A stretch of 64,000 nt of DNA from Dictyostelium discoideum (Eukaryota), in the NCBI GenBank assembly GCA_000004695.1, contig CM000152.2, positions 3,744,001-3,808,000 of the forward strand, in the 5' to 3' direction. Below are positions 46,224 through 53,153 of the stretch, piece after piece (position 1 is the first letter of the stretch; the number at the start of each line of letters is the position of its first letter). Both the position numbers and the translations under genes were made by a program. The notes beneath the pieces were generated by a model. The model was given only the letters and a program-made list of their open reading frames with translations. It made no database searches and was not told the DNA's origin.

Positions 46224-47400
<1,177 letters not shown>

Positions 47401-47520: not shown

Positions 47521-47596
<76 letters not shown>
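47521..47596. repeat. poly(A) homopolymer, about 76 nt, 120 bp downstream of the GATA gene stop
   Basis: Read directly. Confidence 0.9.
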
Positions 47597-47599
<3 letters not shown>

Positions 47600-47929: not shown

Positions 47930-48180
47930 GAATGGTTTCTTAAATTTTTTTTATTTTTTATATCTTTAATGTATTTTTTAGTTTCAATTTATAGTATATA
48001 ATATCAAAAATAAAGTTAAATCATTAAAAAAAAAAAAAAAAAAAAGATGAAATTTTTTTTTTTTTTCCCCAAGTGACGAATTTTGTTTTTTAATTATAAT
48101 TATTTATTCTGGACTATAAATATAGATCTAAAAAAAAAATTCAAAAAACAAAACAATTACTGCAATTGTTTTGTTTTTTG

Positions 48181-48234
<54 letters not shown>

Positions 48235-48385
48235 ATCAAATATTATATTTTATTCTCATATATCATTTTGTGTATTTTTGAATTTTCTATTTTTATGTAA
48301 TATTAAATTTTATTTTATATAATTTTTTGTCTGATAGGTTGGGATGTTAAAAAAAAAAAAAAAATGGAAAATTAATTTTATTATG

Positions 48386-48540
48386 ACAACACGTGTTGTG
48401 ATAATACATGTATTTTTAATTTTGCTTTTGGTCTTTTAGTGAATTTTGTTATTTAATTTCACTACACGAGCCCAGTGAAAAAAAAAAATCACTCACCTTA
48501 ATTTTTTTTTTTTCAAAAGCTTATTGATGATTTTCTCTTT
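48386..48540. other. GC-richer intergenic island containing a 14-bp perfect palindrome (ACAACACGTGTTGT, CACGTG core), a U3 box-B-like hairpin (TTTCACTACACGAGCCCAGTGAAA) and a box-C-like TTATTGATGATTTT
   Basis: Read directly. CACTACACGA is also present in the U3 gene at 62785. There is no ORF longer than 40 codons here. Confidence 0.4.
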
Positions 48541-49355
48541 ATTTACCAAATAAATCAGTTGATCTATTTAAAGAAGAATTTAATTTTGGCACCATATTTG
48601 CACCGACTAATGGTTTACGTTGAATAAAACTTGTTGATCTATTTGGTGATTTGAGAGGTGATTTGGATGGTTTGGAATGTTACCTTTAAAATTGAAAAAA
48701 GTGGGAGTGTGATTGTGGTTACTTTGCTGATTAACCACTTTCTTTTATATTTTTTATTTTTATTTTTTTTTTTGTAGAGGTCACATAATATTTATAATTA
48801 TTTAATTATAATTATGTTATATTTATTTAATTTTATTTAATTTCAATTTTTTTTTTTTTTTTTTTTTTTTATTGCACCTCCTACAATAAATAAAAACAAT
48901 AACTATTATTTTTTTTCATTTTTTTATTTTTTTTATTATTAATTATTAAATATTTATAAATTATCCTTTTACTTTTATTAATTTTAAATATTATATATAC
49001 AATAACTTATTATACCGCTGGTTGTTCAATCTCTGTTCCAAGAAAGATGCTAATTAATTCAAATAAAATTGCTGACTGTGGCACCAATGGTATAATGTTT
49101 ATTGCTTTTAATTATGAAACTAGTAAAAAGAGTAATTTTAAAGAAACTATCAAAAAGAATATTTGATAATGAAATAAATGGCCATAGAATCATTAGAAAT
49201 TAAGTTTTTCAAAATCTTTTCAAAGGTGTTAAACATATTTCAACTTTTCAAAGTATTTTTAAATCCATATTAAAAAATGAATTTTAATTTATCTAACACA
49301 ATTATGATTATTATAAGGGTAAATTTAAAATAAAAAAAAAAAAAAAAATAAAAAA

Positions 49356-49389
<34 letters not shown>

Positions 49390-50486
49390 AAAATTAAATC
49401 AATTTTTTATTTTATAATAAATATAACTATTTAGAAAATAAAAAAAAACAGAAAATAAAAAATATTTTTCTTTCATTAATAGAAGCGGTAATTAAATCAA
49501 TGATTTCAAATAATTTTTTTCTTTACAATTATATTATTTGAATGAAATTTCCATTTAAAATTAATTTTATTTATTTACTTATTTATTTTTTTAATATTGC
49601 ACAGAAACCCCTATCATAATCTATTTTTATATTTATTTTTTATTTAATTTTTTTTTTTTTTTTTTTTTAAATTTATCAACACAAAAAATACAAATCGTTA
49701 TAATTAACAATTATTTAATTTTTATTATTAATGAGTGAAAATGTTTAATCATTGGAAAAATGTACCATTCATTTTTATGTAAAATAAAAAATGTTTAATT
49801 ATAATTTCTTTGAGGGGGTAGTATGAAAAAAAGAAAAAGATAAAAAAAAATAATAAAAAATAAATTCCATTTTATTTATATCTAATTAATTTTTATGTTT
49901 TTTTTTTATAGGTTAGTGGGTGAGATTTGTATATAATATTAAAAAATTCCAAATAAAATCGTTTAAGATCTTGATATTAAAAAAATTATATTGATGAAAT
50001 CTCATTTTCAAAAGTCTGATAAAAAAAAAATAAAAATAAAAAAAAAAATAAAAAAAAATATTCTCAAAGAGAAAAATTTGCACAGTAATTTAAATTGTGT
50101 TAGTGTGTGTTGGTGGTTGTGTGGGATCTAATTTACAAAAACCTTATAAATAAATTAATTTTTTCTGTTTCTTCATACAAAACATTTATGATGTTACTTG
50201 AAAGAGTTTTTTATTATATTATTAATATATTGTTATCATTGTACTGTAAAAAATATTTATACAGTTAAAAAACATAAAAAAATAAAAAAATAAAAAAATA
50301 AAAAAAAAAAAATAAAAAAAAAGAATATAATAATATAATGAGTATATTAAAATAATAATAATAATAAAAATTGTCTATTCATTCATTTTATTTATTTGTT
50401 TATTAAAAAAATAATAATAATAACAATTGGTGTGTATGATAATTACACATTATTAATTATTTAAATAAATAAATTTATTAAATAAA

Positions 50487-51739
50487 ATGGAAATTAAAGA
50501 TATTATCATAAATAGTAATTTAATGTTACCACCACCAACAATTTTAACAATAAATAATAAAGATGATTATACATCATTTACTTTTAAAGGGAAATCTATA
50601 TCGGTACCAAGGAAACAAAGAATAACAAAAAAAACAATTTATGCCTGTGATATAAATGGTACAATGTTTCAAACATATAATATGGATACAAACCGATTAT
50701 TAATAATTAAAAAAATTTCACTTTTACAATTTAAAAATCATTTACAAGGTAGAATGATGTTAAGAAATTGTCATTACCAAAGATTTTTTAATCATCATCC
50801 ATTTGTATCTGGTTTTAAAGTTTCAAAAAGAAAATCATTAAATATTAAAACAAAAAATCTAATTGAATCTCCAGTTGATGATGGTACTGATTTATATTTT
50901 GAATTTGACCAATCTGATTTCACTTTATACCAAATGATTAGATCAGATAAAGCAGCTTCAAGAAAACAATGTCCATATGTTTTGTACCAATTATTAACAA
51001 CTATCAAATATATAAACTCTGCTGGTGTAATTCATAGAAGTCTTGACCCAAAAACAATTGCAGTTAATAAAGAATATAAAACTAAATTATTTGATTTTAG
51101 TTTTTCAATTTCAACAGACTATCCAACAGATATCTTTTTTAAAGATTATGAAGAAACTCCATGGCCATATCGTTCTCCTGAAACAATAATAATGTTAAAA
51201 GAATTTTCATTTGAATGTGATGTTTGGTCGATTGGTGTAATATTTGCTGAATTAATTTTAGGTGAACAATTATTTAGAGGTGAAAGTAGTAAGTATTAAT
51301 TTTTAATTTTTTAATTTTTTAATTTATATAATTAATTTATTTAATTTTTTTTTTTTTAAAAGAACAATCACTTCTTATAGAAATTTCAGAATTAATTGGT
51401 ACACCAACATATGATGAATGTAAAGAATCAACTAATGGTTTCGCTAGAAATTTTATTTTAAACATTCCATTAAAATCAAGACATGGTGGAATTAAAAAAA
51501 GAATTCCAAATGCAACTGAAGAAGAAATTGAAATTTTAGAAGGAATGTTATGTTGGAATCCAAAGAAAAGATGGCCAATTGAAAGAATTATTCAGCATCC
51601 TTATTTTCAAAATTATTGTCATATTGAACAATATAAATGTGATAAAAAATTCTCACTTGGTTCTCCATATGTTTTTCATAGATTAAATGCAAAAGAAATT
51701 AAAAAAATAATTGAAGATGAATTTGTTACCCAACCATAA
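50487..51739 (+). CDS. CMGC-like (MAPK/CDK-like) protein kinase homolog with degenerate catalytic motifs; predicted pseudokinase, 2 exons
   Basis: The CDS is join(50487..51288, 51363..51739) with a GTAAGT donor and an aaag acceptor. The kinase-like fold shows CDVWSIGVIFAELILGEQLFRG, ETPWPYRSPE (an APE-like segment), and in exon 2 LIGTPTYDE and MLCWNPKKRWPIERIIQHPYF. The catalytic loop reads VIHRSLDPKTIAVN instead of HRDLKPxN, the DFG motif is DFS, and no GxGxxG loop is present. Confidence 0.6.
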
Positions 51740-51944
51740 AAAAAAAATATATATTTATTATAAAAAATAAATATCAACTTGTATATAGTTTTAATATGTT
51801 TTTTAAATTAAAAAGTAAAAAAAAAAAGAATAAATAAATAAAAAAAAGAAATTAAAAAGTTTTAAAATCCTAAAAAATACATATATTTATTTATTTCATA
51901 CTAATTCTTGATTGTAAACCTTTTAACTCTATTTTCTTTTCTTA

Positions 51945-52900
51945 ACTATAAAAAATGTTGTTGCAGCAATTGCAAAAGCACCACCAATTGGAAGAGCAAC
52001 AGCAAGTGGGATGACGATTTGAACTATCACATGAAGTTTTAAAATCAGTTGATAATAAAACAGAGAAATCTATTAATTTAAAAAAAAAAAAAGAAAAAAA
52101 AGAAAATTAAAATTAATAATATGTTATAAATTTATCTTTTTTTTTTAAAAAAAAAACATACCAGGATCAATTAAACATGAAGTTGTAAAATGAGGTAAGT
52201 TTAATCAAACTATAACTGATGTTTCATCTTTTGAAATAATAGAAGATGAAATTAATGTTGATCTATAATCTACTACCGCTTGATTTATTAGTCTACCAAA
52301 TAAAGTTTTACCATTCTTTTTAATTTCAATATAATTAATTGCTGATAATGAATTTTCATCTTGAGTTTCAACTTTAGTATGGGTCAATCATTTTCTTTTT
52401 TATTTATATCTTCAGTTACATCTGATTTCATTTGAATTTGTAAACTATATTACATTCTTGATTGGATTTACAATCACAAATGCAAGAACCAGAATTACAG
52501 TCACAAAAGCTATTACCTGTTCAGTTTGTACTACAACTTAAATATTGGTTTAAAAAGTCTGGAATTATAGTGAGTAGGACATTTGATTGAAGTTGAAGTT
52601 GAAGAAATGGTGGTATTTGCATCAACTATATAAGTTGAGCTATTAAAACCTTCTAAAACTGAACAAGTTATTTGATTAAATATGGCTTTGGTAACTATAC
52701 AATTAATTTCATTACTATTGTTATCTAAACCAACAACTGATATTATACTTGTATTATAATATCAAGACCCATGGAACCAACTAAAATAATTTTGTTTAAA
52801 AAATGTACTGTTAGATTTATAAATTAAATGATATCTTTTTAAAAATTATTTCGAAAACATATTTACAATTGCTCAAACTTTGTCAATTGTGAAAAATAGA
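51945..52900 (-). pseudogene. fragmented or degenerate gene: Cys-rich (CDCNSGSCICDCKSNQEC) segment, short ORFs, and a C-terminal TM anchor ending ...PIGGAFAIAATTFFIVKKRK*
   Basis: Minus-strand translations read (i) 52051..51945 LKLHVIVQIVIPLAVALPIGGAFAIAATTFFIVKKRK-stop; (ii) about 52527..52450 FCDCNSGSCICDCKSNQECNIVYKFK; (iii) 52205..52387, a 60-aa ORF; and (iv) about 52740..52530 SVVGLDNNSNEINCIVTKAIFNQITCSVLEGFNSS...IKCPTHYNSRLFKPIFKL. The composition is less AT-rich than typical intergenic DNA, but I could not join the pieces with canonical introns. Confidence 0.3.
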
Positions 52901-53153
52901 AAATACGATTAAACTTAATTTCTGTACTTGTCATTATACTTTTTTAAAACAAAAAAAAAAATTAGTTTGGAACATATCAATCTTTTTTTTAATTTTTTTT
53001 TTTAAAAATAAAAATACGTACAATGCTTTTAATTTGAGATTTGGTATATCATCAAAAAAATTTGACGTTATGTTGCCTTTAATAAAAAAGAAAAAAAATA
53101 AAAATAAATATTTTTTAAACAAGCACCTAAAAAATAATTTTAGGTAATTTAAA

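What the first reader, a model, noticed from the sequence alone, without database searches (positions are those of the whole stretch)
50487..51739. CMGC-like kinase homolog predicted to be catalytically dead
The fold is clearly protein-kinase (CDVWSIGVIFAELI, ...WPYRSPE, LIGTPTYDE and the MAPK/CDK-like C-lobe), but the catalytic loop is HRSLDPKT (Asp to Ser at the catalytic base, Asn to Thr), DFG is DFS, and there is no glycine-rich loop. Pseudokinases of the CMGC group are uncommon and often act as scaffolds or allosteric regulators.
Basis: partly seen in the sequence, partly recalled or inferred. Interest (0 to 1): 0.55.

Follow-up and report, generated by a model that had tools for sequence, protein, structure and literature searches.

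The report
Known dead MAP-kinase-like gene, Dictyostelium
This is the Dictyostelium discoideum gene DDB_G0280855, a MAP-kinase-shaped protein that has lost its catalytic residues. It was already listed as a predicted inactive kinase in 2006. What is new here is that evolution is clearly keeping it intact, so it is a working non-enzyme and not a decaying gene.

Summary
Window 50487-51288 plus 51363-51739 (intron 51289-51362) encodes a 392-aa protein identical to D. discoideum AX4 DDB_G0280855 (UniProt Q54US6, 'Probable inactive serine/threonine-protein kinase').

- **Fold:** it is an ERK-type MAPK, with all 50 best PDB fold matches being MAPKs.
- **Catalytic lesions:** the HRD Asp is Ser, the catalytic-loop Lys is Asp and the Asn is Thr. 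DFG is DFS, the alphaC Glu is Asn, and two of three Gly-loop glycines are gone. TEY is KDY and the acidic common-docking patch is lost. The beta3 Lys and DFG Asp remain.
- **Prior knowledge:** the Dictyostelium kinome paper (Goldberg 2006, Table S2) already lists this exact sequence as DDB0229333, CMGC group, family Dicty1, 'inactive', with motifs LIIK/HRSLDPKT/DFS.

New here:
- All nine available genomes (D. discoideum, cf. discoideum, citrinum, dimigraforme, firmibasis) keep the ORF, the intron (checked in four) and every degenerate motif.
- dN/dS is 0.06-0.15, a tighter constraint than on the tandem paralog that still has HRD (0.23-0.43).
- In AX4 the copy of that paralog beside this gene, and the downstream ComC-like gene, have suffered deletions, while this gene is intact.

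The most likely function is a non-catalytic binding or regulatory MAPK-fold protein; its partner is unknown. Novelty is low.

The parts
50487..51288 (+). Exon 1 of DDB_G0280855 (codons 1-267 plus the first base of codon 268). It covers the N-terminal L0-like segment, the N-lobe, the catalytic loop, the activation segment and alphaF.
   Evidence: Splice and translation; exact protein match; ORF list.
51289..51362 (+). The single intron, 74 nt, GTAAGT...AAAG, phase 1.
   Evidence: The position is conserved in 3 other species. The tandem paralog has an intron at the aligned position with the same phase.
51363..51739 (+). Exon 2 (codons 268-392 plus TAA). It covers alphaG, the MAPK insert, subdomain XI and the L16-like tail.
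   Evidence: An AATAAA lies 27 nt downstream, at 51766.
50643..50660 (+). Degenerate glycine-rich loop, A53-C-D55-I-N-G58 (ERK2 G32->A, G34->D, G37 kept).
50709..50711 (+). Retained beta3 (VAIK) lysine, K75, in LIIKK.
50766..50768 (+). N94 in place of the alphaC glutamate (ERK2 E71). It is invariant in all three Dicty1 subfamilies.
51033..51056 (+). Catalytic loop HRSLDPKT: catalytic Asp->Ser185, Lys->Asp187, Asn->Thr190.
51093..51101 (+). DFS in place of DFG (Asp203 kept, Gly->Ser205).
51141..51149 (+). K219-D220-Y221 at the position of the MAPK TEY dual-phosphorylation motif. The Thr is lost; the Tyr is invariant in the family.
51689..51727 (+). C-terminal helix (residues 377-389, AKEIKKIIEDEFV) aligned with the MAPK L16 extension.
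48997..49263 (+). Context, not part of the gene: coding remnant of the tandem Dicty1 paralog (DDB_G0280643 type). It carries a frameshift, an in-frame stop and a roughly 1-kb internal deletion. Homology to the paralog locus spans 48080-49681.

Best explanation
The locus is the intact, selectively maintained gene DDB_G0280855. It encodes a pseudokinase of the Dictyostelium-specific CMGC family 'Dicty1'.

Shown:
- The protein keeps the whole ERK-type MAPK architecture: the N-terminal L0 segment, both lobes, the MAPK insert and the L16 tail helix.
- It lacks the phosphotransfer machinery. There is no catalytic base (HRS). The Lys and Asn of the catalytic loop are replaced (D187, T190). The alphaC Glu is gone (N94), the Gly-loop is degenerate (with an Asp in it) and DFG is DFS.
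- It lacks the Thr of the TEY motif that MAP2Ks phosphorylate.
- It lacks the acidic common-docking patch, and part of the F-site pocket is changed.
- Purifying selection is strong.

Inferred:
- It cannot phosphorylate. It probably does not bind ATP in the canonical way, because the pocket has three acidic side chains against one Lys.
- It is not switched on by MEK. It does not act as a simple D-motif decoy.
- It therefore works non-catalytically, as a binding or regulatory subunit, through surfaces that the family conserves. These are the N-lobe/alphaC region, which shows the lowest dN/dS, and the invariant activation-segment motif P-x-x-x-F-x-x-x-Y ... YRxPET.
- The partner is most plausibly a kinase or another signalling protein, and cannot be named from sequence.

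Confidence is about 0.85 for 'catalytically inert, functional, MAPK-derived pseudokinase'. It is about 0.3 for the specific 'allosteric or binding partner through non-canonical surfaces' mechanism. The single confidence value given (0.75) refers to the statement as a whole: a non-catalytic, binding-based function.
For: - Identity and prior annotation.
- Kinase and MAPK homology: Pfam E=2.1e-30. PDB sequence hits are MPK6 (8.7e-40), MPK4 and ERK2 at about 1e-35.
- Structure: AF2 model mean pLDDT 75.4, pTM 0.78, with the C-lobe mostly above 85. All 50 top Foldseek PDB hits are MAPKs, with target-normalised TM-scores of 0.72-0.87.
- Key-residue table against ERK2 and the paralogs.
- Conservation: nine genomes from five lineages keep a 392-395 aa ORF and every degenerate motif.
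- Selection: dN/dS is 0.064-0.152 at dS 0.37-0.63, and neutrality is rejected at p<=2e-22. Regional omega (D. discoideum vs D. firmibasis) is 0.08 for the N-lobe, 0.16 for the C-lobe and 0.42 for the tail.
- Comparison with the paralog: the HRD-retaining tandem paralog evolves faster, with omega 0.23-0.43.
- Neighbours: both flanking genes carry deletions in AX4 while this gene is intact.
- Family-wide invariance: N94, D187, K75 and Y221 are invariant across three subfamilies that are only 35-42% identical. The replacement residues are therefore themselves constrained.
- Definition: a pseudokinase lacks at least one of the VAIK Lys, HRD Asp or DFG Asp (PMC13519141).
Against: - There is no biochemical, expression or genetic data. 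Full-text searches for the gene and protein identifiers found nothing beyond the kinome paper.
- The beta3 Lys and DFG Asp are retained, so nucleotide or cation binding cannot be excluded. HER3, JAK2 JH2 and ILK bind ATP despite degraded HRD motifs.
- The AF2 model rests on only 11 sequences. The five models range from pLDDT 51.7 to 75.4.
- No partner has been identified. The surfaces proposed are inferred from conservation alone, and four orthologs at 84-94% identity give little resolution.
- dN/dS shows that the protein matters, not what it does.
Confidence: 0.75

Rival explanations
1. Competitive decoy. The dead MAPK binds the normal partners of ErkA/ErkB (MEK1, MAPK phosphatases, D-motif or DEF-motif substrates) through the canonical MAPK docking grooves, and so titrates them.
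For: The MAPK fold and C-lobe are well preserved. Part of the hydrophobic docking groove is kept: Y164 aligns with ERK2 Y128, V193 with L157 and M150 with L115. Decoy action is an established pseudokinase mode, for example viral MLKL.
Against: Both CD acids are lost (D318->H354, D321->Q357). The ED site is K195/E196. The F-site residues Y233 and L234 become K268 and Q269. The MEK target Thr is Lys, and two of the three Arg that bind the phospho-Thr are hydrophobic (M90, I208). The docking residues of D. discoideum ErkA/ErkB themselves were not examined.
Confidence: 0.12
2. Atypical but active enzyme. A migrated catalytic residue (for example D187, two positions after the lost HRD Asp), or an alternative geometry or chemistry, restores catalysis, as in WNK, POMK, SelO or SidJ.
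For: K75 and D203 are retained. D187 is invariant in the whole family. Goldberg 2006 explicitly warns that kinases with alternate active-site geometries may hide among the predicted inactive set. Precedents are reviewed in PMC13519141.
Against: Six separate catalytic elements are lost at once: two Gly-loop glycines, the alphaC Glu, the HRD Asp, the catalytic Lys, the Asn and the DFG Gly. The paralogs carry both the HRD Asp and D187, so D187 did not arise as a replacement for the base. An Asp at the Lys position and an Asp in the Gly-loop should repel the ATP phosphates (inference).
Confidence: 0.06
3. Decaying gene: a recently inactivated kinase on its way to becoming a pseudogene.
For: The gene sits in a region that is decaying in AX4. 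The neighbouring paralog copy and the ComC-like gene both carry large deletions. The family is lineage-restricted.
Against: The ORF is intact in 9 genomes, and the intron is intact and at the same position in the 4 gene models checked. dN/dS is 0.06-0.15 with p<=2e-22 against neutrality. The degenerate motifs are identical across a synonymous divergence of about 0.5.
Confidence: 0.02

Closest known systems
CMGC group, family Dicty1 of the Dictyostelium kinome (Goldberg et al. 2006, PLoS Genet 2:e38): DDB0229333, DDB0229296, DDB0229841
   Same: It is DDB0229333. The 392-aa sequence and the motif calls (LIIK / HRSLDPKT / DFS, 'lacks D166', predicted inactive) are identical. It shares with the other two members the LMxPPP...GxxISxPRK N-terminal segment, N94, D187, the loss of the TEY Thr and the intron position.
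   Different: It is the only member that has lost the HRD Asp, and the only one that keeps the DFG Asp in D. discoideum (the others have EF[YN]). It is the shortest member, lacking the N-rich N-terminus and having a shorter beta4-beta5 insert. Of the two subfamilies measured, it is the more conserved.
ERK-type MAP kinases (human ERK2, Arabidopsis MPK6/MPK4, Magnaporthe Mps1)
   Same: They share the overall fold and the MAPK-specific elements: the N-terminal L0 strand, the MAPK insert and the L16 helix. The YRxPE, DxWSxG and LIGTP motifs, the HRD His-Arg, the alphaF Asp and the subdomain XI Arg are also kept. Sequence identity is 23-35%.
   Different: There is no catalytic base, catalytic Lys or Asn, alphaC Glu or Gly-loop. 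TEY is KDY, the CD acidic patch and part of the F-site are lost, and there is an extra roughly 20-residue basic loop between beta4 and beta5.
Pseudokinases that act as allosteric partners of active kinases (STRADalpha-LKB1, HER3-EGFR, KSR-RAF)
   Same: This is a functional analogy only. In each case a kinase fold with a degraded catalytic loop is retained under selection and works by binding (reviewed in PMC13519141). From memory and untested here: STRADalpha also has Ser at the HRD Asp position.
   Different: These belong to different kinase groups (STE, TK, TKL), with no homology beyond the kinase fold. Their partners and nucleotide dependence are known, whereas here neither is known.

Membership tests
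Eukaryotic protein kinase domain (Pfam PF00069) | Whole-protein score above Pfam's gathering threshold | tested here: met
   106.4 bits against a cut-off of 31.7, E=2.1e-30, residues 58-349.
Pseudokinase (sequence definition) | Absence of at least one of the VAIK Lys, HRD Asp and DFG Asp | tested here: met
   The HRD Asp is Ser185. K75 and D203 are present. Definition from PMC13519141.
Pseudokinase (functional definition) | No phosphotransfer activity, with or without nucleotide binding | not testable with these tools
   This needs recombinant protein assays.
CMGC / Dicty1 family (Goldberg 2006) | Listed member, with closest relatives being the other Dicty1 proteins and not any conserved CMGC family | tested here: met
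   The exact sequence appears in Table S2 as DDB0229333. In an exhaustive HMMER search the only hits better than true MAPKs are the two other Dicty1 subfamilies, at E=2.5e-81 and 3.9e-56.
MAP kinase family | MAPK fold with L16 C-terminal extension and MAPK insert | tested here: met
   All 50 top Foldseek PDB hits are MAPKs. The modelled helix 377-389 aligns with ERK2 L16.
MAP kinase family | T-x-Y dual-phosphorylation motif in the activation loop | tested here: not met
   K219-D220-Y221 in all nine orthologs.
MAP kinase family | Intact catalytic residues (Gly-loop, beta3 Lys-alphaC Glu pair, HRDLKxxN, DFG) | tested here: not met
   Only K75, the His-Arg of HRD, and D203-F204 remain.
MAP kinase family | Acidic common-docking (CD) site for D-motif partners | tested here: not met
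   ERK2 D318 and D321 align with H354 and Q357. This rests on alignment only, and the loop contains one gap.

The most novel reading that the evidence does not exclude
Dicty1 would be a young family of MAPK-derived pseudokinases, restricted to the D. discoideum clade. In it the member with the most thoroughly destroyed active site has become the most constrained. The reason would be that it acquired a specific regulatory role, for example as an allosteric partner or inhibitor of ErkA/ErkB or of its own paralogs. That would make it a 'pseudo-MAPK' regulator of MAPK signalling in an organism described as having only two MAPKs and one MAP2K. I know of no characterised precedent, though this was not checked systematically. 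A still more exotic variant, catalysis through the family-invariant D187, is also not excluded.
Probability: 0.15. Interest if true: 0.55.

Novelty: already known. Interest (0 to 1): 0.2.

Why it matters
As a finding it adds little. The gene, its CMGC placement and its predicted inactivity have been in the literature and in UniProt since 2006.

The value added here is the evidence that it is a functional pseudokinase:
- The constraint is strong, and tighter than on its HRD-retaining paralog.
- The replacement residues themselves are conserved.
- The canonical MAPK regulatory and docking features are gone.

D. discoideum has a minimal MAPK system (ErkA, ErkB, one MEK) and easy genetics. A knockout and an interactome of this gene would therefore be a cheap way to learn what a dead MAPK fold can be used for. 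No characterised MAPK-derived pseudokinase is known to me for comparison (from memory, not checked).

Tried and rejected
- **Literature on the gene:** full-text searches for DDB_G0280855, DDB0229333, Q54US6, the paralog identifiers and 'Dicty1' found no functional or expression study. The 'Dicty1' hits other than the kinome paper are a cloning-vector name (pKOSG-IBA-Dicty1) in the one checked; the rest were not opened.
- **Literature on CMGC/MAPK pseudokinases:** a search for 'CMGC pseudokinase', 'MAPK pseudokinase' and 'pseudo-MAPK' found no paper using those terms. Kwon et al. 2019 is not held. The claim that CMGC pseudokinases are uncommon therefore could not be checked against a source.
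- **Other supplements:** the supplements of Glockner 2016 do not contain the gene.
- **D. purpureum (Sucgang 2011):** the D. purpureum kinase table (Additional file 1, Table S9) has no counterpart for any of the three Dicty1 genes. All three appear only in Table S5, 'close paralogs in D. purpureum'. The ortholog table was truncated when stored, so this is suggestive and not conclusive.
- **Limits of the word-indexed protein search:** with E<=1e-20 it found only orthologs and one CDK. It failed to return P0012 even when P0012 was part of the query alignment. Absence of D. purpureum or group 1-3 homologs is therefore weak evidence.
- **Limits of the exhaustive search:** it shows only three Dicty1 clusters, but relatives more than 50% identical to a representative would be hidden.
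- **AFDB:** the Foldseek afdb50 library was unavailable.
- **Parent MAPK:** I looked for a specific parent. The nearest true MAPKs come from scattered eukaryotes (Ostreococcus, Aplanochytrium, a zoopagomycete fungus, plant-like sequences), so no parent can be named.
- **Decaying gene:** considered and rejected.
- **N-terminal motif:** I considered that the conserved LMLPPPT...SISVPRK segment might be a novel motif. Its second half aligns with the ordinary MAPK N-terminal segment (ERK2 GQVFDVGPRY).

Full report
**1. What is there**

The window is 21% G+C. The region 50487-51739 reads as a two-exon gene on the + strand. Exon 1 runs 50487-51288, a 74-nt GTAAGT...AG intron runs 51289-51362, and exon 2 runs 51363-51739 and ends in TAA.

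The spliced CDS is 1179 nt and encodes 392 aa. That protein is an exact match to Dictyostelium discoideum AX4 DDB_G0280855. The accessions are XP_640945.1, EAL66969.1 and UniProt Q54US6, named 'Probable inactive serine/threonine-protein kinase DDB_G0280855'.

**2. Is it a kinase fold, and which one**

- Pfam's Pkinase model matches residues 58-349 at E=2.1e-30, 106 bits against a 31.7-bit threshold. Profile positions 1-12, the start of the Gly-loop, are not matched.
- Against all PDB sequences the best hits are Arabidopsis MPK6 (8.7e-40), MPK4 (2.6e-36) and then ERK2 at about 1e-35. All 60 hits shown are MAPKs.
- An AlphaFold2 model built from the 11 sequences I was allowed to use has mean pLDDT 75.4 and pTM 0.78. 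The C-lobe is mostly above 85. Only residues 1-16 and the 118-132 loop fall below 50.
- All 50 best Foldseek matches in the PDB are MAPKs: MPK4, Mps1, MPK6, ERK2, p38, ERK5, ERK7 and Fus3. Target-normalised TM-scores are 0.72-0.87.
- The alignment to ERK2 runs end to end. The segment FKGKSISVPRKQ aligns with the MAPK N-terminal segment GQVFDVGPRY. The C-terminal helix 377-389 aligns with the L16 extension.

'CMGC-like' can therefore be sharpened to 'ERK-type MAPK-derived'. The phmmer alignments and the curated alignment agree with it at the catalytic motifs.

**3. The catalytic and regulatory residues (agreeing)**

Each ERK2 residue is followed by what this protein has.

| Element | ERK2 | This protein |
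|---|---|---|
| Gly-loop | G32 / G34 / G37 | A53 / D55 / G58 |
| beta3 Lys | K54 | K75 (kept) |
| alphaC Glu | E71 | N94 |
| HRD | H147-R148 / D149 | kept / S185 |
| Catalytic-loop Lys | K151 | D187 |
| Catalytic-loop Asn | N154 | T190 |
| DFG | D167-F168 / G169 | kept / S205 |
| TEY | T185-E186-Y187 | K219-D220-Y221 |
| Phospho-Thr-binding Arg | R67, R172 | M90, I208 |
| Common-docking acids | D318, D321 | H354, Q357 |
| ED site | T159, T160 | K195, E196 |
| F-site | Y233, L234 | K268, Q269 |

By the field's sequence definition, loss of any one of the VAIK Lys, HRD Asp or DFG Asp makes a pseudokinase (PMC13519141). This protein therefore qualifies.

Beyond that definition, six separate catalytic elements are gone. 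The pocket also gains two acidic side chains (D55, D187). I take this, as an inference, to make canonical ATP binding unlikely.

**4. It is already known**

Table S2 of the Dictyostelium kinome paper (Goldberg et al. 2006, PMC1420674) lists this exact sequence as DDB0229333. [quoted passage not shown]

That paper counts 29 predicted inactive ePK domains in the species. It remarks that scaffolding or regulatory functions, and alternate geometries, may be found among them.

Dicty1 has three members:
- DDB0229296, with VIVK / HRDIDPSA / EFY, classed inactive. This is probably DDB_G0280557. That link is inferred from Sucgang's Table S5 listing, not from a sequence match.
- DDB0229333, this gene.
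- DDB0229841, which is DDB_G0280643, with VILK / HRDLDPEN / EFN, classed 'active, qualified'.

No paper in the searchable library mentions the gene otherwise.

**5. Functional pseudokinase or decaying gene**

- Orthologs exist in D. discoideum strains, D. cf. discoideum, D. citrinum, D. dimigraforme and D. firmibasis. That is nine genomes, at 84-99% identity, all 392-395 aa.
- Every one keeps CDINGT, LIIKK, MLRN, HRSLDPKT, DFS, FFKDY and YRSPET.
- I rebuilt the CDS in four species. The intron is at the same site in each, and each model reproduces the deposited protein.
- Nei-Gojobori dN/dS is 0.064-0.152 at dS 0.37-0.63. A binomial test against neutrality gives p between 2e-22 and 6e-33.
- Between D. 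discoideum and D. firmibasis, omega is 0.08 in the N-lobe (58-150), 0.16 in the C-lobe, 0.18 in the N-terminal segment and 0.42 in the tail.

The gene is therefore under strong purifying selection. The decaying-gene reading is rejected.

**6. The family context**

In D. firmibasis, D. dimigraforme, D. citrinum and D. cf. discoideum, a second Dicty1 gene lies 1.1-1.3 kb upstream in the same orientation. It is the DDB_G0280643 type, 451-458 aa, with HRD[LI]DPE and [DE]F[RN].

It shares the intron position and phase with this gene, so the pair is an old tandem duplicate.

The paralog that still has the HRD Asp evolves two to five times faster (omega 0.23-0.43) than the HRS gene.

Across all three subfamilies, which are 35-42% identical, the 'wrong' residues N94 and D187 are invariant. 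So are K75, Y221, P213, F217 and the YRxPET loop. The ancestor of the family was therefore probably already impaired. The replacement residues have become constrained in their own right.

The exhaustive HMMER search of 1.84 billion cluster representatives found only these three clusters ahead of true MAPKs. The values are E=4.5e-249, 2.5e-81 and 3.9e-56, followed by a duplicated, plant-type MAPK sequence (source not determined) at 4.4e-57.

All named Dicty1 relatives come from the D. discoideum complex or D. firmibasis. Sucgang et al. 2011 list no D. purpureum counterpart for any of the three in their kinase table, and place all three under 'close paralogs' only. The family looks young or very fast-evolving, but the searches have known blind spots (see 'tried and rejected').

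The nearest true MAPKs are from scattered eukaryotes, so no parent gene can be named.

**7. The AX4 neighbourhood**

- Window 48080-49681 is collinear with the AX4 DDB_G0280643 locus. That locus lies about 195 kb away on the same 6.43-Mb chromosome record, in opposite orientation.
- Only residues of about 55-143 of the CDS survive in the window, at 48997-49263, at 91.8% nt identity. They carry a frameshift and an in-frame stop, and about 1 kb of the gene is deleted.
- The two AX4 copies are more alike (92%) than either is to the syntenic gene of D. citrinum or D. dimigraforme (78-83%). This points to a duplication within the D. discoideum lineage, followed by decay of the copy beside this gene.
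- Downstream on the minus strand, the ComC-like TIG/EGF gene is 1058-1077 aa in the other species. In AX4 it is reduced to a 199-aa model by two internal deletions of about 0.9 and 1.2 kb.

The pseudokinase gene sits intact between two damaged neighbours.

**8. How it most likely works**

Shown:
- The MAPK fold is intact.
- The phosphotransfer residues are absent.
- The MEK target Thr and its Arg cage are absent.
- The CD acidic patch is absent and the F-site is altered.
- Selection is strong.

Inferred:
- The protein is not an enzyme.
- It is not regulated like a MAPK.
- It is not a straightforward decoy for D-motif partners.
- It acts by binding.

The most constrained parts are the N-lobe/alphaC region and the family-invariant activation segment, and these are the candidate interfaces. 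In other families, pseudokinases use such surfaces to regulate active kinases allosterically, as in STRADalpha-LKB1 and HER3-EGFR. That comparison is an analogy, not evidence for this protein.

The retained Tyr221 could be a phosphorylation-dependent switch. The invariant basic K114-R-K116-S motif in the disordered beta4-beta5 loop could be a basophilic-kinase site or a nuclear-localisation signal. Both are speculation.

I give about 0.85 to 'inert, functional, MAPK-derived pseudokinase' and about 0.3 to the specific allosteric or binding-partner mechanism. The rivals are decoy (0.12), atypical enzyme through D187 or an alternate geometry (0.06) and decaying gene (0.02).

**9. Verdict**

The selection analysis, the comparison with the paralog and the loss of the docking sites are modest additions.

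- Interest: 0.2.
- Novelty: already known.
- Most novel reading not excluded: a lineage-specific 'pseudo-MAPK' regulator of the minimal Dictyostelium MAPK system, at probability about 0.15 and interest about 0.55 if true.

Noticed in passing
window 48080-49681 (+), coding remnant 48997-49263: An internally deleted pseudogene copy of the tandem Dicty1 paralog (DDB_G0280643 type). It keeps about 89 codons at 91.8% nt identity to the intact AX4 gene about 195 kb away, and has a frameshift, an in-frame stop and about 1 kb missing. The gene is intact and adjacent in D. citrinum, D. dimigraforme, D. firmibasis and D. cf. discoideum. This suggests a duplication within the D. discoideum lineage followed by decay of the copy beside DDB_G0280855.
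   Followed up: yes
window ~51900-52940 (-): The downstream ComC-like (TIG/EGF, PF22933) gene is 1058-1077 aa in the related species. In AX4 it is a 199-aa model. Alignment to D. citrinum shows two internal deletions (L003 7966-8885 and 9197-10442 have no counterpart).
   Followed up: partly
L001 3381-4846, L002 3495-4932, L003 3287-4724, L004 5001-6440: The tandem paralog keeps the HRD Asp but evolves markedly faster (dN/dS 0.23-0.43) than the HRS pseudokinase (0.06-0.15). It shares N94, D187, loss of the TEY Thr and the same phase-1 intron position. Goldberg 2006 classed it as 'active, qualified', but it also lacks the alphaC Glu, the catalytic Lys and Asn, and the DFG Gly.
   Followed up: partly
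window 50826-50837 (residues 114-117, KRKS) within the low-confidence loop 118-132: A basic K-R-K-S motif at the start of the beta4-beta5 insert. K114 and K116 are invariant in all three Dicty1 subfamilies (FKRKCS / FKKKSS). It fits a basophilic-kinase consensus or an NLS-like patch. Its significance is unknown.
   Followed up: no
window 46224-47400 (+); 47521-47597; 48183-48233: The upstream neighbour is a GATA-type zinc-finger ORF (CSNCKITHSSYWRR...CNACGLH) preceded by a long poly-Asn tract. The intergenic region carries an A-run of about 77 nt and a T-run of about 51 nt. Flank lengths differ between this window and the newer AX4 assembly (GCA_054883475.1), although the gene itself is identical.
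   Followed up: no
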